From: an uncultured bacterium
GTDB taxonomy: Bacteria; Patescibacteriota; JACMRA01
DNA: 64,000 nt
Direction: 5' to 3'
NCBI GenBank assembly: GCA_963704645.1
Contig: OY969926.1
Span: 224,001-288,000 of the forward strand
The translations under genes and the position numbers were made by a program. Position 1 is the first letter of the stretch; each line of letters begins with the position of its first letter. Below, one piece after another: positions 19,430-42,945 of this stretch. Under the pieces are notes generated by a model. The model was not told the origin of the DNA, searched no databases, and worked only from the letters and a program-made list of their open reading frames with translations.

Positions 19430-19831
19430 CTACTGAATATTAGATGTATCCATCCAGAAGGCTTCCCATAAATGGCCGTCTAAATCTTGAAAAGATCTTG
19501 TGTACATAAAACCTTTGTCATCTGCAGGGTTATATTCGGTAGCACCTAAACTTACTGCCTTATTAACAATATCATCAACTTCATGCTTTAAATTAAAGGA
19601 AATGGCATTTATTACTTCAATTTTATTAGGTTCAGAAATATCTTTGTCTGCTATAAAAGTTTTAAAGAAAGGTTTAACCAGCAACATTACAAAAATGTTA
19701 GGCGCTACTATCATGCAAGTTGCATTTTCGTCTGTAAATTGTGGGTTAAAAGTAAAACCAAGTTCTGTAAAAAATTGAATAGTCTTTTGCAAATCTTGCA
19801 CGTGTAAGTTAACGAAAATGTTGGTAGGCAT
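19430..19831 (-). CDS. VOC/glyoxalase family protein
   Basis: IFVNLHV, FNPQFTDENATCM, FMYTRSFQDLDGHLWE. Confidence 0.9.
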   Translation of the reverse strand: MPTNIFVNLHVQDLQKTIQFFTELGFTFNPQFTDENATCMIVAPNIFVMLLVKPFFKTFIADKDISEPNKIEVINAISFNLKHEVDDIVNKAVSLGATEYNPADDKGFMYTRSFQDLDGHLWEAFWMDTSNIQ

Positions 19832-23182: not shown

Positions 23183-23605
23183 TTACAGACTTGCAAACCA
23201 AGTCTCATCAAAACCAGTATGTCTCGTATCATCATAAAAGACTTGGTGACCATTTTCTTCGGCAAAATCAATTAGATCTGAAATTGAGACATCCATCACT
23301 GATGAGGCTCGAATAATTACCTTATCTTCGCCAACAATTTCCCTTAGATCCTGTAAAGTTCCATTCCAACGAAACATGTTTGAACTTTTTTCAGTGCTTC
23401 GATTCCAATATTTATCCCCATCATCTGGAGGGGTAAACAAAACGCCTTCACCAGTATCTAAAATAAGATTATTAGCAGCTAGCAACTTAAACACTTTAGT
23501 TCTATCAAAGTCGAGAGCACTATGAATAGAAACATAGTGTGGCGGGAAAAGAATTAACTTAACAACTTTTCCAGGGGAGTTTAAACCATTATTCATCGTC
23601 TTCAC
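23183..23605 (-). CDS. Hypothetical protein, paralog of 34335-34733
   Basis: Shared KVVKL.LFP, FRWNGT, KVIIR.SS, GHQVFYD, F...WF. Confidence 0.75.
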   Translation of the reverse strand: MKTMNNGLNSPGKVVKLILFPPHYVSIHSALDFDRTKVFKLLAANNLILDTGEGVLFTPPDDGDKYWNRSTEKSSNMFRWNGTLQDLREIVGEDKVIIRASSVMDVSISDLIDFAEENGHQVFYDDTRHTGFDETWFASL

Positions 23606-34334: not shown

Positions 34335-34733
34335 TTAAAGGTTATCAAACCATTCATTGCTAAAATCTGTGTACATTTTGCCATCATAAAAAACTTGATG
34401 ACCGTGTTTGTTGGCAAATTCAACCAACTCTTCAATTGTTATTAACAATTTAGATGAATAACGAATTATTACTTTTTCGCCATTTGCAATTTCTATAATT
34501 GAATCAATTGTTCCATTCCATCGAAAAGGTGGCAAGCAAATTTCTGCACTTTTTCTACTGTATCCATATTCAGGAAGACGCAAAACACCGTAACCAATAT
34601 ATAATGAAATATTGTTTCTTGCTAAAAGGCTAAATACACCAGCTGTATCTAGACGTAAACAACCAAGAAAGTCTATGTAATTCGGAAAAAGTAATAGTTT
34701 TACTACTTTTGGTGAAGAGTATAAATTACTCAA
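34335..34733 (-). CDS. Hypothetical protein, paralog of 23183-23605
   Basis: Shared motifs; TTG start with AGGGGG upstream. Confidence 0.75.
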   Translation of the reverse strand: MSNLYSSPKVVKLLLFPNYIDFLGCLRLDTAGVFSLLARNNISLYIGYGVLRLPEYGYSRKSAEICLPPFRWNGTIDSIIEIANGEKVIIRYSSKLLITIEELVEFANKHGHQVFYDGKMYTDFSNEWFDNL

Positions 34734-35003
34734 TATCTTACCCCCTTAAATATTCTACTAACCTTTAATTTAGTTATTATTTTATTAATTTGTACAAGGT
34801 TATTTTAAAAATTGCTGTTGAATATTAAAATTTTCCCCTATACAAATAATATCTAAATGTAAAATAAAGAGCTAACCTAATAAAACTATGGTCGCTTTAA
34901 CAAATGGAAGAAACAATAGGGTAAACCGGTGAAGCAGGTTTTAGAGGTGTTTTTAGGGCTTAATATAATTGACAATTATTCTAGTAAAAAGCAATACAAC
35001 ACT

Positions 35004-35357
35004 ATGATCACAGTCTACGGAATTACCAATTGCAGCACAGTGCAAAAAGCTAGGAATTGGCTTGAACAAAACAAAATTGAGTATAATTTCCATGATTATA
35101 AAAAAGTTGGAATAGATAGCCAACACTTACAAAAATGGATTAACAAATTTGGCTGGGACAAAGTTTTGAACATGCAAGGCATGATGTGGCGAAAAGCCAG
35201 CGACGAAGAAAAATCCAAGGTTGTAGATGAAAAATCTGCTATTGAGTTTATGATTAAAGTTCCAAATTCTATTAAGAGGCCGATTGTAGAGTTGGAGGGT
35301 GGGGAGGTTTTGAGGGGGTTTGATGAGTTGGAGTGGAAAAGAAGGCTAGAATTATAG
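35004..35357 (+). CDS. ArsC/Spx/YffB family protein
   Basis: MITVYGITNCSTVQKAR, HDYKK, IKRPIV, GFD; start moved to ATG at 35004. Confidence 0.9.
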   Translation: MITVYGITNCSTVQKARNWLEQNKIEYNFHDYKKVGIDSQHLQKWINKFGWDKVLNMQGMMWRKASDEEKSKVVDEKSAIEFMIKVPNSIKRPIVELEGGEVLRGFDELEWKRRLEL

Positions 35358-38300
35358 AATTCATAACACATAATGCCTGTATGAATTTATTTGATAGCGA
35401 ACAAGACCCTTCTAAAATATCTCCTTTAAAAAACAGGGCTGCAGAAAGTGAAATTAAAGGAATTATAAAAATACAAAACTATTTAGCTAACTTCCACCAA
35501 GATTCAAGAAGTAAAGGCTTACTGATTGAAGATAAAATTAATTACAAAGACACTGAGAGGACACACGATGGATTTATACAATTTCATTTTAATAACAACC
35601 AGTTTGATAACATTGTTCCTGTTTGGTCGCAAGTTAAATCACAAAAAAAATGGCAAGGGAGTTGGGAAATAACCGATAAAAATATTCTTGATTACAAAGC
35701 TAGAGGGATAGATACTAACACATTTGTTTGGTTAATGACTTTACGCAGTGAACAAAAAGTATATTATAGAATTTTAAACTACAACGATTATTACAAGCTA
35801 ATAAAATCAAAAGATGAAAAAAGGTATATAGAGTTTGATAGAAAGAAATTTTTTCAAAATGATTGGGAAACAGTTAATCAGTTTTTTACCGATTGGAAAA
35901 GGGAGTATTATAAAATAAGACAGATTGATTCAGATTTAGAAATCCCAAAAAAAGAGCTTTCAGATTATGATAAATCTCTTGATAAGATAAAGCCAATTTT
36001 AAAATCAACCATTATATCGCGTAAAGAAGTTTCTGAAAGTAATAGGGTAATAGATCTTTTAGATAAAATAATAAAAATTGGTAACAACCCTTGGACTGAA
36101 GATTTAACTGATACTTTGAAAGAAAATCCAACATTACAATCAAGGTTTTTCGAGATTTTAGAAAGTAAAGACATCAAAACAATTAATAGAGCATTTAAAT
36201 TTGTTATACCAAAATTAATACATATTATTACAGAAAAACCTAAAATTAATTTCCAGGATTGGAAAACTGCGAGGAGATTATTTTTATACATACTTAACAA
36301 ATACAATTGTGAGAACAAGAACGATAATAAGGTACAGGAGTATTATCAAAATATAATTTTAAACTTAGATATTAACCAATACGAAGACTTAGAGCAATTG
36401 AATTTAATATTTAATGGATTAAATGATGTTGATGAAATAACAAGTGAATTGAGGATAAAAATTTTAGAAATTATCGAAAATATTCAATCAACTAATTACC
36501 CAATATTCTTTAGCCTGTCCAGGTTTGTAAGTAAACACTTTTATAAATACCCCAGGGAATGTACCATAATTTTTTCTAAAATAATTCAAGATTCAAACAT
36601 GTCTAGTCATGGTTTTGATTCTGATGGACAACATATTATAAATGAGTTTTTTAGAAAATTTCCAAATGAGAAAAAAATAGAATATAAGCAATATTTAATT
36701 AAACTTGCCGTAGAGTCATTAGTAAAATCTGCAAATGAAGATAAAAGTTTAGATTTAAATGAACATTCAATATATAAATATGAAAGTTTTCCATTACATT
36801 ATTTACATTTTTCTAAAGAAGATGAAATTGAAAATGATAATATTTCATATTTTGACTTTTTATGGAAATTATTAAAGGAAAATTTTGCACCTGCTGAAAT
36901 AACTAATATTTTTGATACTTGGTTTGGCTCTAAAAATATCTATGAGTCTTTAGTGTTTTTTGCATTTAGGTATTCTAAAATGAATGATTTAGCTTATGAT
37001 AAAATAGATTTGTTACTTACAGAAATAAACAAATTAGATTTTGGAAAATGGGATAAACCTCCAAAACAAAGTTTTTGGCTTGAAGAAAAGGAACCTTATA
37101 TAACAACTATTCACTCTGGATACGTAACAGAAGAAATGATAGTCACTGAATGGCAACAAAAATTACCCAAAACTAGAGATTCATACTTAAATTGGGGCCA
37201 CCAAGATTGGCAAAAAGATGTAGAATTTGAAATTCAAAACAACCAAAATAGCTTTGATTTTTCATATAATATTGAAAAAGTGCTTAAATCATATCTCATT
37301 AAAAGCAAACTTGAAATAGAAGAATTAATAACTTTCTTTGCAAGTATCAATTATGCTAATAATATTGAATTAAAAAATTCTTACTTATTAGCTTGTGTAA
37401 AAATATTAGAAGAAAGTACAATCTTAAAAATTGAACAAGCTAAAATTTTAATTGATCAAATAAATAGTAAAAATATTGTTCTGTCTGGAGAATTGGGCAA
37501 AGTTATCCTGTGGTTTTTTGAGAAAAGTTTTGAAGATATAAAGATGGAAAGTACAGTAGTTGGAAACTTATATACAATAATAACTAGTTTTTTAAAAGAA
37601 TACGTGCTTGAAGACAAGTATCAAACCAATTTAAACCACCAAGATATAAGAATCAAAAAGGTGAAGGTTACAGCAGGAACAATTATTAACACTCCAACTG
37701 GAGTAGCTTTTGAAATACTAATCTTTAAATTATGGTATCATTATTTAAATACAGAAAAAGATATCGAAATTTTAGAATTTATTAAATCTCAATTTGAAAA
37801 CAATAAACCCCTGGTAAAAGATTCAATTTTATTTTGCCTTGGCCACTCATCAAAGGAAATTTTAGATAAATACTGGGTTAAATTCATTGATAACATAGTA
37901 AAAGAAAGCCTAAAAGAGGATTACGATTATGGTCGTTTTATATTTTTATTGTATATCATAAATAGATGGCTTATAAAATCGGTAGACTATAGAAACGACT
38001 TGCAAAAATGGGTAAAAGTATTTCTTGAAACATTTGGAGAAGATGAAAGAGATGAGTATTTATCAGCCTGTATTCACCAAATTTATGCAATTGAAATTTG
38101 GACAGGAATTTTTCAAAAACAGCTTGGCAGTTTCAAGGTATTGAATGATGAGGTAAAATATGAACTAAGTAGAACAATTTTGAGCACAGCCGAAAAATAT
38201 AGGACATTTTTTAAAGATAAAGAAAACAAAGTATTTCTTGAAAAAAGATTATTCAGTTATATTGACGCGGCTATAACCTTCTTAAATAAACATGATTTGA

Positions 38301-38747
38301 AAAAATACAAAACAGATAATTTCTTTAGATCAATAGTTTACGATTATGAAGAAACTTCTAAACTAGAAGAATATTTTGAATATTGGCTTAGCGAAGATAG
38401 GAAACCTTATTTTATAAAAATATTAGATATGAAAGAAGCATATTCGTATTTATATGATCCTGAATTTTTAAAGGAGAGGTATATTGTTGAAAGCAAAAAA
38501 CTAAGAAATTTTGCCATAGAATTTTTAGAAATATATTTAGAATCTAAAAGAAAATTAGAAGACATTGATTTATTAGCTAAAAAAATCATTTTCATAGTTA
38601 AAACAGATAACTTGTACCTAGATCCAAGAGTAAAAAACATCAGTGAAATGCTTATATCAATTAGTAGTTTGGAAAAAGTAATAGAATTAAGCCAAATTTT
38701 AACTGAAAACAGTTAAGTTCGTTTATGATTAAAGTTCCAAATTCTAT
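35246..38747 (+). mobile_element. Single-gene insertion bounded by a 27-bp direct repeat inside the ArsC-family gene
   Basis: gtttatgattaaagttccaaattctat at 35246-35272 and 38721-38747; no integrase inside. Confidence 0.75.
35381..38716 (+). CDS. Large protein with an N-terminal PD-(D/E)xK-like nuclease motif and a long helical region; candidate anti-phage gene
   Basis: E..G, HDGFIQF, SQVKS at the N-terminus; very low GC; likely start ATG 35381. Confidence 0.6.
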   Translation: MNLFDSEQDPSKISPLKNRAAESEIKGIIKIQNYLANFHQDSRSKGLLIEDKINYKDTERTHDGFIQFHFNNNQFDNIVPVWSQVKSQKKWQGSWEITDKNILDYKARGIDTNTFVWLMTLRSEQKVYYRILNYNDYYKLIKSKDEKRYIEFDRKKFFQNDWETVNQFFTDWKREYYKIRQIDSDLEIPKKELSDYDKSLDKIKPILKSTIISRKEVSESNRVIDLLDKIIKIGNNPWTEDLTDTLKENPTLQSRFFEILESKDIKTINRAFKFVIPKLIHIITEKPKINFQDWKTARRLFLYILNKYNCENKNDNKVQEYYQNIILNLDINQYEDLEQLNLIFNGLNDVDEITSELRIKILEIIENIQSTNYPIFFSLSRFVSKHFYKYPRECTIIFSKIIQDSNMSSHGFDSDGQHIINEFFRKFPNEKKIEYKQYLIKLAVESLVKSANEDKSLDLNEHSIYKYESFPLHYLHFSKEDEIENDNISYFDFLWKLLKENFAPAEITNIFDTWFGSKNIYESLVFFAFRYSKMNDLAYDKIDLLLTEINKLDFGKWDKPPKQSFWLEEKEPYITTIHSGYVTEEMIVTEWQQKLPKTRDSYLNWGHQDWQKDVEFEIQNNQNSFDFSYNIEKVLKSYLIKSKLEIEELITFFASINYANNIELKNSYLLACVKILEESTILKIEQAKILIDQINSKNIVLSGELGKVILWFFEKSFEDIKMESTVVGNLYTIITSFLKEYVLEDKYQTNLNHQDIRIKKVKVTAGTIINTPTGVAFEILIFKLWYHYLNTEKDIEILEFIKSQFENNKPLVKDSILFCLGHSSKEILDKYWVKFIDNIVKESLKEDYDYGRFIFLLYIINRWLIKSVDYRNDLQKWVKVFLETFGEDERDEYLSACIHQIYAIEIWTGIFQKQLGSFKVLNDEVKYELSRTILSTAEKYRTFFKDKENKVFLEKRLFSYIDAAITFLNKHDLKKYKTDNFFRSIVYDYEETSKLEEYFEYWLSEDRKPYFIKILDMKEAYSYLYDPEFLKERYIVESKKLRNFAIEFLEIYLESKRKLEDIDLLAKKIIFIVKTDNLYLDPRVKNISEMLISISSLEKVIELSQILTENS

Positions 38748-38832
38748 AAAAAGACCAATTGTTGAGTTAGAAGGTGGGGAAATTTTAAAGGGGTTTGACG
38801 AGGCAGAGTGGAGAAAAAGTTTGAATGCTTGA
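38721..38832 (+). pseudogene. Displaced 3' end of the ArsC-family gene
   Basis: Translates FMIKVPNSIKRPIVELEGGEILKGFDEAEWRKSLNA*, matching the C-terminus at 35246-35357. Confidence 0.9.
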
Positions 38833-38960
38833 ACATAATTTAAATTTGTTTATTTAACAGAAATTTTTCAAAGCTTTAGCTGCGGAATATAGCGAAAAAA
38901 GCTTATAACAAGTCAAAAATAGTGTTTGACACTAAAGCAAATGTCTTGTGGTATTGAAGT

Positions 38961-39854
38961 ATGACCAAATCTAATTGGAGTGTTGAAAACATACCTAATC
39001 AAACTAATAAAATAATTATAATTACTGGGGCTACAAGCGGTCTTGGTAAGGAAGCCACTAAGGTTTTGGCAAAGAAAAATGCTACGGTAGTAATGGCAGT
39101 TCGCAATACTAAAAAAGCAGATATAGTGGCAAATGAAATTCGCTTAGATTACCCAGAAGCCAAATTAGATATACGCCAATTAGATTTAGGTAGTTTAAAG
39201 TCTATAAAAGCTTTTACTAGCAATTTCTTAAAAGACTATGACAAATTGGACATATTAATTAACAACGCCGGTGTAATGGCTTGTCCTTATTCTAAAACAG
39301 AGGATGGTTTTGAAATTCAGATGGGAACCAACCATTTTGGTCCTTTTGCTCTTACTGGTTTATTGTTTGATTTATTAAAGAAAACACCCAATTCAAGAAT
39401 TGTTTCCACTTCTAGTTTTGCACATTTACGAGGTAATATTAATTTTTCTGACATCAATTGGGAGACTAGGAAATATAATACCGCCAAAGCCTACGCTGAT
39501 AGTAAAATTGCCAACTTATATTTTACATATGAATTAGCAAAAAAATGCCAAGATGGTCACCCTTTGGTAACAGTGGCTCACCCTGGTTGGACTAAAACAG
39601 AGCTAGACAGACATTCTGGAATAGCAGCATTTTTAGGTAATATTTTGGCACAAAAAGTAGATATGGGAACATTACCAACTCTTCGCGCAGCATTTGATTC
39701 TGAAGCCAAATCTGGACATTTCTATGGACCGAACGGACTTTTTGGAATTAAAGGTTATCCTGTAAAAGTAAAATCTAATGAACTATCTCATAGTGAAACT
39801 ATAGCTAAAGAATTGTGGGAAGTCTCGCAGAAAGCGACTGGAGTTAATTATTAG
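38961..39854 (+). CDS. Short-chain dehydrogenase/reductase (retinol dehydrogenase-like subgroup)
   Basis: TGATSGLG, INNAG, TNHFG, YADSK, HPG. Confidence 0.93.
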   Translation: MTKSNWSVENIPNQTNKIIIITGATSGLGKEATKVLAKKNATVVMAVRNTKKADIVANEIRLDYPEAKLDIRQLDLGSLKSIKAFTSNFLKDYDKLDILINNAGVMACPYSKTEDGFEIQMGTNHFGPFALTGLLFDLLKKTPNSRIVSTSSFAHLRGNINFSDINWETRKYNTAKAYADSKIANLYFTYELAKKCQDGHPLVTVAHPGWTKTELDRHSGIAAFLGNILAQKVDMGTLPTLRAAFDSEAKSGHFYGPNGLFGIKGYPVKVKSNELSHSETIAKELWEVSQKATGVNY

Positions 39855-39867
39855 GAATTACTAAGTA

Positions 39868-40971
39868 ATGAAGGTTTTTAACTTTATGAACCCTCCAACC
39901 AACTTCACACCTAAAACCAATTCTGAGTTGTTGGCATATTGCTCGGCTATTAGACCTGTAGAATACGAAAGCAGCCGCAATAGTGTAAACGGTAAAGTTA
40001 CAATGCTTTCACCCTACATCACCGCTGGTATAATTTCCCTAGCTAAGATCAAATCGGTTATTCTTCAAAAGCACAGTCTACAGAATTCAATGAAGCTGAT
40101 TCAGGAACTGTCTTGGAGAGACTATTTTCAGTCTGTACATTTAAGCATGGGGGATGAAATATTTAAAAGTATAAAGAGAGAGCAAGAATTTGGACTTTTT
40201 GATGAAATACCAACTGCTATTTTAGAGGCAAAAACTGAGATTAAAGTTATAGATAATGCTGTTACAAAACTTTATGAAACAGGATATTTGCATAATCACG
40301 AGCGTATGTGGCTTGCAATGCTTATTTGCAATATTGCCGGAACAAAATGGCAGGTTGGGGCTAAATGGATGTATTATTATTTACTTGATGGAGATCTGGC
40401 ATCTAACACACTATCATGGCAATGGGTGGCGGGAACTTTTTCTTCTAAAAAATACTTTGCTAATCAAGAAAATCTTAATAAATACGGAAATAGCCAAGAT
40501 AGGCAATTTGGAACTATTTTAGATAAAAGCTACGAAGAGATAAGCCAAAACTCAGATGAAAAAATTGTACCAAGCTTGTTTAGTGATCGAAGTTCAATAA
40601 TTCTTGAAAATAACACAAATTATCTGGCTAGTTTTTTTGAAGAAGCCAACAAACTTGATGATCAAAACACGTGTTTTACAATAAATACAATTACACCTGA
40701 TTTGAGTGAAAAGCCCAATCCTGTTTTGGTTTTTATTGAAGATCCAGAATGGTTAATTTCCAAAAAAAGAATTGACTTTGTAGTTGCTCAAATAAAACTA
40801 ATTGCGCCAGATACAAAACTGCTGGTTGTACAAAAGAATGATGAAAATAACCAAGATTTAATTAAAAAATTACCAAAACAAGAACGACTACACCCCACTC
40901 TAACTGATTATTATCAATCTTTTTTCAAGTTTTGGAGTAAAGCCGAAAAGCTAATTATTGAGGGAAATTAA
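39868..40971 (+). CDS. Short photolyase with N-terminal FAD-binding domain (inverted-topology, NewPHL-like)
   Basis: SRN..G.VT.LSPYI at the start, GYLHNHERMW, LLDGDLASNTLSWQWVAG; no N-terminal antenna domain. Confidence 0.8.
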   Translation: MKVFNFMNPPTNFTPKTNSELLAYCSAIRPVEYESSRNSVNGKVTMLSPYITAGIISLAKIKSVILQKHSLQNSMKLIQELSWRDYFQSVHLSMGDEIFKSIKREQEFGLFDEIPTAILEAKTEIKVIDNAVTKLYETGYLHNHERMWLAMLICNIAGTKWQVGAKWMYYYLLDGDLASNTLSWQWVAGTFSSKKYFANQENLNKYGNSQDRQFGTILDKSYEEISQNSDEKIVPSLFSDRSSIILENNTNYLASFFEEANKLDDQNTCFTINTITPDLSEKPNPVLVFIEDPEWLISKKRIDFVVAQIKLIAPDTKLLVVQKNDENNQDLIKKLPKQERLHPTLTDYYQSFFKFWSKAEKLIIEGN

Positions 40972-42437
40972 GTTAAACCTATCATTTGAGATCTATTCAA
41001 CCTACCTTTTATTAACATTGCCATGCGTGGATTTTTAATAAATGTCTCTTGGTGACTTAATAGAAATTCCCAAAATTTATCTGTCCACATTTTTTCCCAA
41101 ATATAATTTTTACCGGTTGGATAATCTGACATTTTTTTAATGTAATTACCACCTGCAATGTAGGGTTTTGTTGCAAAAATTCCTCCATCAGCGTACAAGC
41201 CCATTCCCATTACATTGGCCACCATTACCCACTCGCTGGAATCTATGAACATTTCTACAAACCAAATATAGCATTGAGCTGGTTTATATTGGTTCAGGGT
41301 CATCCAATTAGCCAAAATCATTAGTCTTTCAATATGGTGACAATAGGCTAACCTATCTACTTTTTCCAAAGTGTATTTTAGTGGTAGGTTTTGGGAATAC
41401 TCGGAATCTTCAATAAAGTCACTTCTATAAAAATACTCTGGTAAATCTTTTTCTGCTTTAAAAAAATTAAGTTCTAAAAAGTTTTCGGAGTAAACATTAT
41501 CATATAAACCTTTTACCCATTCTCTCCAACCAATAATTTGCCTAACAAAACCCTCCAGGGAGTTCATTGGAATATTTTTTAAGCTGGTAACCTTATCTAA
41601 AACTTGATTTGGGGTTAGTAACCCATTGTTAAGCAAAGCTGATAGGCACGAGTGAAAAACAGTATCCGAGCTGGTGGTCATTGCATCTTCGTAATCACCA
41701 AACTTTTCTAAGTATAAATTACAAAATTGGCTTAAATATTCATCTGATTGCTTAAAGTTAACTGGCAGCCAAGAATTTTCTAGAATTTGACCGGGATTGT
41801 TTGGAAAATACTTTTTAACAACATTTACAACAATTTTATAGTGTTCAGATTCAAAAACTGTTTGTCTTTCTGGAATTAATTCATTTTTAGGTAGCTTCTT
41901 TCTATTTTCCTCATCAAAAGACCATTTCCCACCAACGGGAGTATTATCCCGCTCAACTAATATTCCTAACCTTTTACGTTGCTGAATATAAAAATCATTC
42001 ATTAGTAGTCTTTTCCCATTTTTACTAGAAACAAAGTCTGAAAACACGTGTTTTGGTGTTAAAAACATTGGACTCGGCAAAACTCTAAGCCTAATATTTA
42101 GTCTAGTACAAACATCATCTAAAAACTTGGCGAAATATTTATCGGCAATTTCACAAATTACTAATTCTTCATATTTATTAACTTGAAAAAGATGGATTAG
42201 AACCTCCTCAAAATCTCTTTTCTCCTCTAAATAATTATAAAATACCTTCTTTTTATTTTCCTCTAAATAATCTTTATATTCCCTCATTATAGTTAGAATA
42301 TAAGCTAGTTTAAACTTGTGATAATTGAATTTACTAGTTAAAAAACCAGATTCCACCATAACAAAATCTGCTTCCAAATTTAAGGATGGGTGATTCTTAA
42401 AAAGTTGATCGGCAACTATTAGGCAAAGTGAGGGCAT
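40968..42437 (-). CDS. Prokaryotic (6-4) photolyase-like protein (PhrB/CryB family), lacking the Fe-S cysteines
   Basis: DQLF, HKFK, GGKWSFDEENRK, FGDYEDAM, EGFVRQIIGWRE, HHIERLM, ATKPY..GNYIKKMSDY. Confidence 0.9.
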   Translation of the reverse strand: MPSLCLIVADQLFKNHPSLNLEADFVMVESGFLTSKFNYHKFKLAYILTIMREYKDYLEENKKKVFYNYLEEKRDFEEVLIHLFQVNKYEELVICEIADKYFAKFLDDVCTRLNIRLRVLPSPMFLTPKHVFSDFVSSKNGKRLLMNDFYIQQRKRLGILVERDNTPVGGKWSFDEENRKKLPKNELIPERQTVFESEHYKIVVNVVKKYFPNNPGQILENSWLPVNFKQSDEYLSQFCNLYLEKFGDYEDAMTTSSDTVFHSCLSALLNNGLLTPNQVLDKVTSLKNIPMNSLEGFVRQIIGWREWVKGLYDNVYSENFLELNFFKAEKDLPEYFYRSDFIEDSEYSQNLPLKYTLEKVDRLAYCHHIERLMILANWMTLNQYKPAQCYIWFVEMFIDSSEWVMVANVMGMGLYADGGIFATKPYIAGGNYIKKMSDYPTGKNYIWEKMWTDKFWEFLLSHQETFIKNPRMAMLIKGRLNRSQMIGLT

Positions 42438-42618: not shown

Positions 42619-42945
42619 TTACTTTCCTGAATAATTTATAAATTTAATTGTTTCCTTGGGCGGCGTTGGTGGCTTAGGTGGTAATTTATCTCCGTATTTC
42701 TTTAGTGTATAAACATATAAATCTTGCACTTTAACTCTGGCCCATTCAGTTTTACGCAGAAAAGTTAAACTAGAAGAAATACTTGGGTTCATTTTAAAAC
42801 ATTTAATATCTACCAATTCACCCAGCTTTTCCCAACCATATTTTTCATACAAAAATTCAACTATTACTTTCAAACTTTTCCCATGCAAAGGGTCATTGGC
42901 TTGAGTTTCGGCAAAATCTCTTTTTAGCTGCTCATTGTTTATCAT
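42619..42945 (-). CDS. DUF2132/VF530 family protein
   Basis: DPLHG.SL, YGWEKL, PSISSSLTFLRKTEWAR. Confidence 0.88.
   Translation of the reverse strand: MINNEQLKRDFAETQANDPLHGKSLKVIVEFLYEKYGWEKLGELVDIKCFKMNPSISSSLTFLRKTEWARVKVQDLYVYTLKKYGDKLPPKPPTPPKETIKFINYSGK

What the first reader, a model, noticed from the sequence alone, without database searches (positions are those of the whole stretch)
35246..38832. Integrase-free insert that swaps the 3' end of an ArsC/Spx gene
Seen: an exact 27-bp direct repeat (35246-35272, 38721-38747) bounds a 3475-bp unit. The left copy continues as the working gene end (..GGEVLRGFDELEWKRRLEL*); the right copy continues as an orphan end (..GGEILKGFDEAEWRKSLNA*) starting 4 nt after the cargo stop. 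The unit carries only the replacement gene end and one cargo gene. Known: integrative elements that target coding genes restore them this way. Inference: a minimal circular cassette integrated by single crossover, mobilised in trans or via natural transformation.
Basis: partly seen in the sequence, partly recalled or inferred. Interest (0 to 1): 0.72.

Follow-up and report, generated by a model that had tools for sequence, protein, structure and literature searches.

The report
Displaced gene end beside inserted gene
A large nuclease-like gene was spliced into the tail of a small redox gene of a tiny-genome bacterium, bringing a substitute tail and pushing the old tail downstream; three more genes in this genome carry the same scar, and none has a recombinase gene beside it.

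Summary
A 27-bp exact repeat (35246-35272, 38721-38747) opens a 99-112-nt diverged duplication of the ArsC/YffB 3' end. It brackets one 1111-aa gene and nothing else.

It is not a one-off. In this 1.27-Mb Patescibacteria genome, 4 of 1108 ORFs (ArsC, RsmE, HIT, UvrC-like) have displaced 3' ends downstream. That makes 7 orphans, some stacked two or three deep, and no 5' equivalents.

The sister species G001 has single ends at all four loci. At RsmE its gene end and flank are collinear with the outermost orphan.

Working ends and orphans differ mostly at third codon positions, so they look like alleles from related lineages. The four sites share no motif. The genome holds only one Xer-like tyrosine recombinase and one large serine recombinase, both far away.

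Best reading (0.6): homology-anchored, integrase-free additive recombination with DNA from a relative, probably a single crossover with a circular molecule. A dedicated mobile cassette is not shown.

The cargo is a very rare gene with a PD-(D/E)xK (DUF4365/DREN-like) nuclease-type N-terminus.

Closest known are "insertion with long target duplication" and rhs-type C-terminal displacement.

This scan has noted the same scar before on other DNA, including other CPR genomes.

The parts
35004..35357 (+). Working ArsC-family (YffB-like) gene, 117 aa. It is a chimera of a native body and a replacement 3' end.
   Evidence: Pfam PF03960 E 4.2e-14. NCBIfam PRK10853 128.8 bits, cut-off 121. The start at 35004 fits 11 orthologues.
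35246..35272 (+). Left copy of the 27-bp exact block. It is the likely crossover zone.
   Evidence: 2 matches in the window, 0 expected.
35273..35357 (+). Replacement 3' end, inferred to be donor-type. It has 44% G and 4% C, and G at 59% of third codon positions.
   Evidence: None of the 1108 ORF ends in the genome reaches this G3 value (mean 0.138, sd 0.083). It has 11 nonsynonymous codons against the G001 end, compared with 9 for the orphan.
35381..38716 (+). Cargo gene, 1111 aa, 26% GC. It has an N-terminal PD-(D/E)xK nuclease-like domain (about residues 20-160) followed by about 900 aa of helical repeats.
   Evidence: ORF; start fixed by the homologue alignment. There are 2 other family members among 1.84 billion representatives. 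Foldseek's best hits are SPARDA DREN-APAZ chains at E 1e-4, TMq 0.41. The Atlas lead is DUF4365 at 0.81. Mostly helical by DSSP on a low-confidence model.
38717..38720 (+). 4-nt joint (GTTC) between the cargo stop and the orphan end.
   Evidence: Read from the sequence.
38721..38747 (+). Right copy of the 27-bp exact block.
38721..38832 (+). Orphan (displaced) ArsC 3' end. It has 36 codons in frame from 38722 and stop TGA at 38830-38832. It has no stops or frameshifts and nothing upstream to be translated from.
   Evidence: (73% identity to residues 76-115). Pfam ArsC E 0.0036, 18 bits, below the cut-off.

Best explanation
This is the scar of an additive, homology-anchored recombination event that needed no integrase. 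DNA from a related lineage carried the last third of that lineage's ArsC allele followed by a 1111-aa nuclease-like gene. It recombined with the resident ArsC gene inside a stretch of perfect identity, the 27-bp block. The product keeps ArsC whole: native body plus donor tail. It adds the cargo and leaves the resident tail as an untranslated orphan just behind the cargo.

The simplest topology is one reciprocal (Campbell-type) crossover between the chromosome and a circularised donor fragment of about 3.5 kb, made by the cell's own RecA after DNA uptake. A one-sided homologous joint plus an illegitimate joint (HFIR-like) is the close alternative.

Shown: the anatomy, its recurrence at four genes, single ends in the sister species, the allele-like divergence of the ends, the lack of a shared site motif, and the lack of a nearby recombinase.

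Inferred: the polarity at the ArsC locus itself, the circular intermediate, and the roles of RecA and competence.
For: 1. Anatomy. An exact 27-bp block is followed by about 70% identity, and the unit holds only the replacement end and one gene.

2. Recurrence. The last 60 aa of each of 1108 ORFs were searched by tblastn within 15 kb. Four loci have 3'-end copies in intergenic DNA downstream, 7 orphans in all: ArsC 1, RsmE 3, HIT 2, UvrC-like 1. No 5'-end copy lies upstream of any gene.

3. Sister species G001 has one end at each of the four loci. At RsmE a single 2071-nt alignment runs from the G000 flank through the outermost orphan into G001's own gene end. Everything between that orphan and the gene body is therefore an insert. 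The RsmE orphans share the G001-type residues NLNLEK and WLAGY, and the working end does not.

4. Differences between working end and orphan fall at codon positions 1/2/3 as 23/15/44 over the four loci (binomial p 1.2e-4). For ArsC alone it is 5/5/15 (p 0.0056). Both ends therefore diverged under protein selection, in different lineages.

5. The four sites share no motif. The longest shared words are 7-10 nt, reached by 8 to 133 of 200 shuffles.

6. Recombinases. The genome has one tyrosine recombinase, which is Xer-like, and one large serine recombinase. Both are over 180 kb from the locus. RecA, ComEC and DprA are present.

7. HIT orphan 2 is a mosaic. Five of its first 7 diagnostic sites are orphan-1 type and 8 of its last 9 are working-end type, as a reciprocal crossover predicts.

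8. At HIT, the gene behind the working end is the native neighbour of HIT in G001 (47% protein identity, same terminator).
Against: - No donor genome, circular form or empty allele was seen. The one public run holds only short contigs that do not span a joint.
- Polarity at ArsC itself is weak. Working end, orphan and G001 end are all 83/108 identical to one another. The flank behind the orphan has no likeness to G001.
- Twenty-seven base pairs is at the lower limit for RecA-mediated exchange (recalled knowledge, not tested).
- The three RsmE orphans start at the same codon, and two of them are 75/81 identical while their cargo proteins are about 35% identical. That hints at site-specificity, unit duplication or gene conversion.
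- The replacement end (48% GC, very G-rich) and the cargo (26% GC) differ sharply in composition. This is odd for old neighbours in one donor.
- The pattern is not general. A closed genome of another family in the phylum has no such locus among 757 ORFs, and the sister species has one clear and one borderline locus among 899 ORFs.
Confidence: 0.6

Rival explanations
1. Site-specific integration. The unit, or a larger element since decayed, was inserted by an integrase acting on an att core within the 27-bp block. The integrase was either encoded elsewhere (in trans) or lost afterwards. The replacement end would be the usual attP-borne gene end.
For: - Integrative elements that target 3' ends of genes restore them in exactly this way (established knowledge).
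- The exact block sits at the very first base of the orphan in ArsC (27 nt) and in HIT orphan 2 (29 nt).
- The three RsmE orphans share one left boundary.
- The genome does hold one large serine recombinase.
- A tRNA-Arg hotspot with a duplicated tRNA tip plus terminator exists in both G000 and G001.
Against: - No integrase lies in or near any of the four loci.
- The genome has only one Xer-like tyrosine recombinase and one serine recombinase for four unrelated target sequences with no shared motif.
- Orphan lengths differ within one locus: HIT has 50 and 21 codons.
- The UvrC pair has no exact run longer than 11 nt.
Confidence: 0.17
2. Cargo-driven insertion. The nuclease-like cargo promotes its own capture by breaking DNA, as proposed for restriction-modification genes that insert 'with long target duplication'. 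The cassette would be a selfish unit that can excise through its flanking repeats and reinsert.
For: - The N-terminal domain looks like a PD-(D/E)xK nuclease of DUF4365/DREN type. E24, D63 and Q84-V-K86 are invariant between the two full-length homologues.
- Furuta et al. 2010 report integrase-free inserts of all RM types flanked by 30-420-bp direct repeats. They suggest double-strand breakage as the common factor (PMC2853133, passages read).
Against: - Cargos at the other three loci are unrelated small genes: a response-regulator-like gene, a GNAT gene and ORFans. A property of the cargo therefore cannot explain the pattern.
- No second copy of this cargo exists in the genome. It was not found in 26 other genomes of the order or in 400 other genomes of the phylum.
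- The nuclease assignment rests on a model with mean pLDDT 59, and Pfam gives no hit.
Confidence: 0.08
3. Local history only. An ancestral tandem duplication of ArsC or of its end occurred, the second copy then decayed and a gene landed between them. Alternatively, the repeat is an assembly artefact.
For: Tandem paralogues are common in this genome. Examples are the gene pairs at genome 130852/131589 and 809808/810391.
Against: - Each of the 14 other genomes with an ArsC match has a single match.
- The orphan has no stop or frameshift, and its differences are concentrated at third positions.
- An exact 27-nt block next to about 70% identity is not what uniform decay gives.
- The same scar occurs at three other genes, with single ends in G001.
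- An assembler does not create an 83%-identical copy. Contigs of an independent-looking run match the cargo at 100% in two places, but that run may be the source sample.
Confidence: 0.04

Closest known systems
Insertion with long target duplication (Nobusato et al. 2000, seen only as a cited reference; Furuta, Abe and Kobayashi 2010, PMC2853133, passages read)
   Same: - Small gene sets are inserted with no transposase or integrase.
- They are flanked by direct repeats far longer than transposon target duplications (30 to about 420 bp), of variable length.
- The repeat is present once in the empty-site genome and sometimes overlaps the 3' end of a gene.
- Most cases are in naturally competent species.
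- The mechanism is unresolved.
   Different: - There, the two repeats are nearly identical to each other and to the target (for example 44/46 and 417/423), so they are read as a duplicated target. Here they are 76-83% identical with mostly synonymous differences, so one copy came with the donor.
- There, the cargos are RM systems. Here they are a nuclease-like giant and assorted small genes.
- Stacked arrays are not described in the passages I read.
C-terminal displacement and orphan arrays at rhs, cdiA and T6SS effector-immunity loci (Kirchberger et al. 2017, PMC5361080, passages read; Jackson et al. 2009, seen only as a cited reference)
   Same: - The gene body is constant and a new 3' tip plus a following gene is added.
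- Old tips are pushed downstream, giving stacked orphans with the newest next to the gene.
- No integrase is involved.
- Homology-facilitated illegitimate recombination is proposed as the mechanism.
   Different: - Those tips are functionally different toxin domains with cognate immunity genes, kept by selection.
- Here the tips are interchangeable alleles of housekeeping gene ends (ArsC, RsmE, HIT, UvrC-like). The orphans have no evident function.
Integrase-driven islands, prophages and tycheposon-type elements that integrate into 3' ends of tRNA or protein genes (general knowledge; tycheposon preprint 10.1101/2020.12.28.424599 seen as a search listing only)
   Same: - The target gene is restored by an element-borne end.
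- The displaced end sits at the far side.
- Successive events give arrays of partial ends.
   Different: - No integrase is in or near any locus.
- There are four unrelated targets with no common core, and orphan lengths vary.
- Inserts are only 0.5-3.5 kb with one to three genes.
Integron gene cassettes
   Same: Single-gene units without their own mobility gene are stacked at one entry point, with the newest nearest the entry.
   Different: - No IntI-type integrase is adjacent.
- The only tyrosine recombinase scores best with Xer families.
- The recombination sites are copies of a gene end, not attC hairpins. attC structure was not tested.
DUF4365 / DREN nuclease domain of short-pAgo SPARDA systems (for the cargo only)
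   Same: - The N-terminal alpha/beta domain of the cargo gives SPARDA DREN-APAZ chains as the best Foldseek matches. Other PD-(D/E)xK nucleases follow: SwaI, RecU, Hjc.
- The Atlas feature search lists DUF4365 clusters first.
   Different: - No Pfam PF14280 hit, even at E up to 10.
- No APAZ domain or Argonaute partner was seen.
- The remaining roughly 900 residues are helical repeats of unknown kind.
- TM-score is only 0.41 on a model with pLDDT 59.

Membership tests
Integrase-mediated integrative element (island or prophage at a gene 3' end) | A tyrosine or serine recombinase gene inside or beside the element | tested here: not met
   The cargo has no Pfam, NCBIfam or PADLOC family. Whole-genome searches find one PF00589 gene (genome 883-884 kb, Xer-like) and one PF00239 gene (genome 73-75 kb). 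The locus lies at genome 259-263 kb.
Integrase-mediated integrative element (island or prophage at a gene 3' end) | Direct repeats (attL/attR) with a restored target gene and a displaced end | tested here: met
Integrase-mediated integrative element (island or prophage at a gene 3' end) | A common core sequence at independent insertion sites of the same system | tested here: not met
   The four loci share only 7-10-nt words, reached by 8 to 133 of 200 shuffles.
Insertion with long target duplication (Furuta/Kobayashi) | Insert under 20 kb, flanked by direct repeats over 30 bp, with no mobility gene | tested here: met
   3475-nt unit with 99-112-nt repeats. No mobility gene.
Insertion with long target duplication (Furuta/Kobayashi) | The repeat is present once in an empty-site genome | tested here: met
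   G001 has one ArsC end. At RsmE the empty site is collinear with the outermost orphan. The ArsC downstream flank is not alignable.
Insertion with long target duplication (Furuta/Kobayashi) | Both repeats are near-identical copies of the target (a true duplication) | tested here: not met
   83% identity overall and 57/81 after the block, with differences mostly at third positions.
C-terminal displacement arrays (rhs / cdiA / T6SS E-I) | Constant gene body with a swapped 3' tip, and the old tip orphaned downstream | tested here: met
   ArsC here. Stacked orphans occur at RsmE (3) and HIT (2).
C-terminal displacement arrays (rhs / cdiA / T6SS E-I) | Tips encode different toxin domains paired with immunity genes | tested here: not met
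   The tips are homologous ends of ArsC, RsmE, HIT and UvrC-like genes. The cargos have no toxin or immunity family.
Integron | An IntI integrase next to attI, and cassettes ending in attC | tested here: not met
   No recombinase lies at the locus. The single tyrosine recombinase scores 205 bits with XerA, 200 with XerC and 111 with the integron-integrase model, all under their cut-offs. attC folding was not tested.
DUF4365 / DREN PD-(D/E)xK nuclease (cargo N-terminus) | Significant match to the family profile | tested here: not met
   No PF14280 hit at E up to 0.1 for the whole protein or up to 10 for residues 1-212.
DUF4365 / DREN PD-(D/E)xK nuclease (cargo N-terminus) | Restriction-endonuclease-like fold with acidic and lysine catalytic residues | tested here: inconclusive
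   Foldseek's best hits are SPARDA chains (E 1.1e-4, TMq 0.41), then SwaI, RecU and Hjc. The model has pLDDT 58.9. E24, D63 and Q84-V-K86 are invariant in 2 of 2 homologues. Reading these as the catalytic motif is recalled knowledge, not a test.

The most novel reading that the evidence does not exclude
In this Patescibacteria lineage, the 3' ends of conserved genes may serve as portable recombination sites of an integron-like cassette system that has no integrase. In this reading, units of [gene end + cargo] loop out through their flanking repeats, travel as DNA taken up by competent cells, and re-enter any relative by RecA at a 25-30-bp identity block. Arrays would grow with the newest cassette next to the gene. 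This would be a main route of accessory and defence gene flux in genomes that lack conventional mobile elements.
Probability: 0.25. Interest if true: 0.75.

Novelty: new variant of a known kind. Interest (0 to 1): 0.52.

Why it matters
Ultra-small CPR/Patescibacteria genomes carry few plasmids, integrases or transposons, yet differ in gene content between close relatives. How they gain genes is an open question.

One closed genome here shows four such insertion scars at housekeeping gene ends. They record order (stacking), direction (single ends in the sister species) and donor type (allelic ends).

Natural competence has been reported for Saccharibacteria. I saw this only in the abstracts listed for PMC10187176 and PMC10633639. 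The proposed mechanism could therefore be tested directly by transformation.

The scars also flag recently gained genes. Here that is a very rare nuclease-like protein that is a reasonable candidate for a new phage-defence effector.

Tried and rejected
- **Public reads.** One run was offered, with a 0.09 share of words. When laid, 9 short contigs were placed, 8 of them at 99% or better. None spans either joint, and no joints or loose ends fall at the locus. This gives no information on a circle, an empty allele or an artefact.
- **Context of the cargo's homologues.** Two scans each of metagenome contigs and genome contigs, using the family alignment and then P0002, found no locus. P0002 was not found in the 26 other genomes of the class or in 400 other genomes sampled from the phylum. 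Whether the homologue also sits at a displaced gene end stays unknown. The tool for fetching encoding contigs is closed.
- **Word-index protein search.** It returned only the query itself, among 7999 candidates scored.
- **Whole-protein structure model.** It was too poor to search with: pLDDT 42.1.
- **PADLOC, Pfam and NCBIfam on the cargo.** No hits.
- **Promoter and terminator scan of 34600-39100.** 23 promoter-like sites against 25.5 expected, and 0 terminators. Uninformative.
- **G001 intergenic DNA behind ArsC.** It has no convincing likeness to the DNA behind the orphan or in front of the 108-aa gene.
- **Synteny in other family members.** It is too scrambled to help.
- **Xer/dif-type integration.** I considered it because the block is 27 bp. 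I dropped it because I could see no dif-like dyad by eye, and because the four loci have different sequences.
- **Homing-endonuclease-type copying.** I considered it and dropped it, because homing would not leave an orphan end.
- **Literature.** Searches for this pattern in Patescibacteria listed no paper describing it. This covers only the held library, and I read only titles and abstract starts.


Full report
**1. The observation**

None is expected in 100 shuffles, even with three mismatches allowed. The likeness continues for 99 nt at 83% with a period of 3475 nt, and for 85 of 112 nt through both stop codons.

The left copy closes an intact 117-aa gene, 35004-35357. It is an ArsC-family, YffB-like reductase: Pfam PF03960 at E 4.2e-14, and NCBIfam PRK10853 at 128.8 bits over a 121-bit cut-off. 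The right copy is a 36-codon open fragment with nothing upstream to translate it. It starts 4 nt after the stop of the only gene in between.

That gene most likely starts at ATG 35381 (1111 aa), where its one full-length homologue aligns.

The block is not mere conservation. The next 81 in-frame bases are 57/81 identical, and the sister species differs at 3 of the 27 positions.

**2. The organism and the neighbourhood**

The window is genome positions 224001-288000 of a single 1,272,640-bp contig with 33% GC. Earlier notes of this scan call the organism Patescibacteria. Its phylum-level relatives in the genome search have genomes of 0.7-1.2 Mb.

The one same-genus genome, G001, has a single ArsC end. 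It is followed about 130 nt later by the homologue of the 108-aa gene that lies at window 42619-42945. G001 therefore lacks the cargo, the orphan and also the SDR and photolyase-like genes at 38961-42437.

Each of the 14 other genomes with an ArsC match has one match.

**3. The pattern recurs**

I took the last and first 60 residues of 1108 non-overlapping ORFs and searched the genome by tblastn. Conditions were E up to 0.01, same strand, within 15 kb and at most six hits per query.

Copies of a 3' end lying in intergenic DNA downstream of the gene were found at four loci:

| Gene | Genome coordinates | Orphans | Cargo between |
|---|---|---|---|
| ArsC | 259004-259357 | 1 | one 1111-aa gene |
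| RsmE-like methyltransferase | 811408-812178 | 3 | 112-, 128- and 125-aa genes |
| HIT | 1070183-1070575 | 2 | 221- and 161-aa genes |
| UvrC-C-terminal-like | 1104251-1105270 | 1 | three genes, one a GNAT |

No copy of a 5' end lies upstream of its gene.

The same pipeline gave different counts in two control genomes:
- A closed 785,860-bp genome of another family (757 ORFs) gave no displaced 3' end.
- The 973,187 bases fetched from G001 (899 ORFs) gave one clear case and one borderline case. The clear case lies at a tRNA-Arg hotspot that G000 shares.

The scar is therefore real and enriched in this genome, but it is not universal in the phylum.

**4. Direction of the events**

At RsmE, one 2071-nt alignment (74.5%) runs from the G000 downstream flank through the outermost orphan into G001's own gene end. 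G001 is thus the empty site, the outermost orphan is the ancestral end, and the three cassettes are inserts. The orphans share NLNLEK and WLAGY with G001, and the working end does not.

At UvrC, G001 has other, unrelated DNA at the same place.

At HIT, G001 has HIT, then a 214-aa gene, a terminator and murC. G000 has HIT, the 221-aa homologue (47% identity), the same terminator, orphan 1, a 161-aa gene, orphan 2, a 98-aa ORF, a second copy of the terminator and then murC. There, the newest 'cargo' is simply what follows HIT in a relative.

At ArsC itself polarity is weak:
- All three ends (working, orphan, G001) are 83/108 identical to one another.
- The orphan has 9 nonsynonymous codons against G001 and the working end has 11.
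- The working end is a compositional outlier. G occupies 59% of its third positions, which none of the 1108 ORF ends reaches.

**5. The ends are alleles, not decay products**

Differences between working end and orphan fall at codon positions 1/2/3 as follows:

| Locus | Positions 1/2/3 |
|---|---|
| ArsC | 5/5/15 |
| UvrC | 2/1/6 |
| RsmE (outermost orphan) | 6/4/9 |
| HIT (orphan 1) | 10/5/14 |
| Total | 23/15/44 (p 1.2e-4 against one third) |

Both copies therefore diverged while they were translated, in separate lineages. The ArsC ends both belong to the genus-type pattern VELE.GE.L.GF...EW, which more distant relatives lack. The donor was therefore a fairly close relative.

**6. Which machinery**

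Recombinases are scarce:
- The genome holds one tyrosine recombinase, whose best models are XerA, XerC and XerD.
- It holds one large serine recombinase of XisF/CcrB type.
- Both lie far from all four loci.

The four duplicated segments share no word beyond chance, and orphan lengths differ within a locus. RecA, ComEC and DprA are present.

One orphan gives a hint about topology. HIT orphan 2 begins with orphan-1-type bases (5 of its first 7 diagnostic sites) and ends with working-end-type bases (8 of its last 9). A reciprocal single crossover with a circular donor predicts exactly such a chimera, and a simple one-sided insertion does not. Gene conversion between neighbouring orphans would also produce it.

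I therefore favour homology-anchored additive recombination at 0.6. Campbell-type insertion of a circularised fragment is the leading version. Site-specific integration in trans or with a lost integrase stands at 0.17, cargo-driven capture at 0.08, and local duplication or artefact at 0.04.

**7. The cargo**

No library names it. Among 1.84 billion representative proteins it has two relatives:
- a 1114-aa protein at 39% identity, from a MAG contig of 41 kb;
- a 132-aa fragment labelled as from a Flammeovirgaceae MAG.

It was not found in the order, in the class or in 400 other genomes sampled from the phylum.

The whole-protein model is poor but mostly helical. The N-terminal 212 residues were modelled with the one homologue (pLDDT 58.9). 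They give SPARDA DREN-APAZ chains as the best Foldseek hits (E 1.1e-4, TMq 0.41), followed by SwaI, RecU and Hjc. The Atlas feature search independently lists DUF4365 clusters first, at 0.81, which is only a lead. Pfam itself gives no hit.

A nuclease head on a long helical body suggests a defence-type effector. This is inference.

**8. Comparison with what is known**

Two published patterns are closest.

Furuta, Abe and Kobayashi (PMC2853133, passages read) describe 'insertion with long target duplication'. These are integrase-free inserts of restriction-modification genes flanked by 30-420-bp repeats, mostly in competent species, with the mechanism unknown. Their repeats are near-identical target copies. 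Ours are diverged alleles.

Kirchberger et al. (PMC5361080, passages read) describe stacked orphans behind T6SS genes. They cite rhs 'C-terminal displacement' and invoke homology-facilitated illegitimate recombination. Those tips are functionally distinct toxins. Ours are interchangeable housekeeping ends.

Integrase-borne replacement ends and integron arrays work alike in outcome, but they fail the recombinase and core-site tests.

This scan has reported the same scar before on other DNA, including two CPR genomes. I did not re-test those notes. One of them gave me the lead to the Kobayashi papers.

My literature searches listed no paper describing the pattern in Patescibacteria. Supplements were not available to me.

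**9. Verdict**

The claim of a mobile circular cassette is not shown.

I class it as a new variant of a known kind. It is of moderate interest because one closed CPR genome offers four dated, directional examples, and because the mechanism could be tested in transformable relatives.

Noticed in passing
genome 809649-811410 (outside the window; window = genome minus 224000): Behind the RsmE-like gene lies an array of three cassettes. Each holds a promoter-like motif (GTTTGCAAA), a small gene on the opposite strand, a shared hairpin terminator and an orphan RsmE end. Orphans 2 and 3 are 75/81 identical, yet their cargo proteins are only about 35% identical.
   Followed up: partly
genome 1071322-1071358 and about 1072580-1072616: At the HIT locus the terminator of the 221-aa gene is present twice. 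The insert therefore has likeness to the resident DNA at both of its ends.
   Followed up: partly
genome 720113-720155 / 720931-720973; G001 contig C33 18477-18524 / 19577-19696: A terminator plus the last 7 nt of tRNA-Arg(CCT) is duplicated around one small gene. The cargo differs between G000 and the sister species, so this is a shared hotspot. A 25-nt copy of the tRNA 3' part also lies 4.9 kb upstream, at 725917-725941.
   Followed up: partly
genome 818478/819157, 897344/898381, 1044809/1045469/1046856, 578646/580684: Intergenic direct repeats of 37-92 nt (promoter-like leaders, hairpin terminators, a G-rich element) bracket one to three small genes. They may be the same kind of scar with joints outside coding sequence.
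   Followed up: no
window 35273-35357: The working ArsC tail has 44% G and 4% C and contains several GGAGG-like runs. It sits directly in front of a 26%-GC cargo gene. The reason is unknown.
   Followed up: partly
genome 145319-146440 and about 8 further places: An IS-like element of about 1.1 kb occurs in about nine copies at 98.9-99.9% identity.
   Followed up: no
genome 130349-135574 and 584963-590172; genome 1265033-1272640: There is a 5.2-kb inverted duplicate at 95.8% identity. There is also a tandem array of 1218-bp units that runs to the contig end.
   Followed up: no
window 34335-34733 and 23183-23605: The 132-aa gene just upstream of ArsC has a paralogue 10.7 kb away, about 47% identical at both ends. 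Neither has a family.
   Followed up: no
window 38961-42437: An SDR oxidoreductase, a cryptochrome/photolyase C-terminal-like gene and a 489-aa gene sit between the orphan and the next gene shared with the sister species. G001 lacks them here. No repeat bounds them.
   Followed up: partly
G028 (closed control genome) 245158-245226 / 246213-247238: A 23-residue copy of a gene's N-terminus lies 987 bp upstream of the gene. It may be a 5'-end counterpart of the scar.
   Followed up: no
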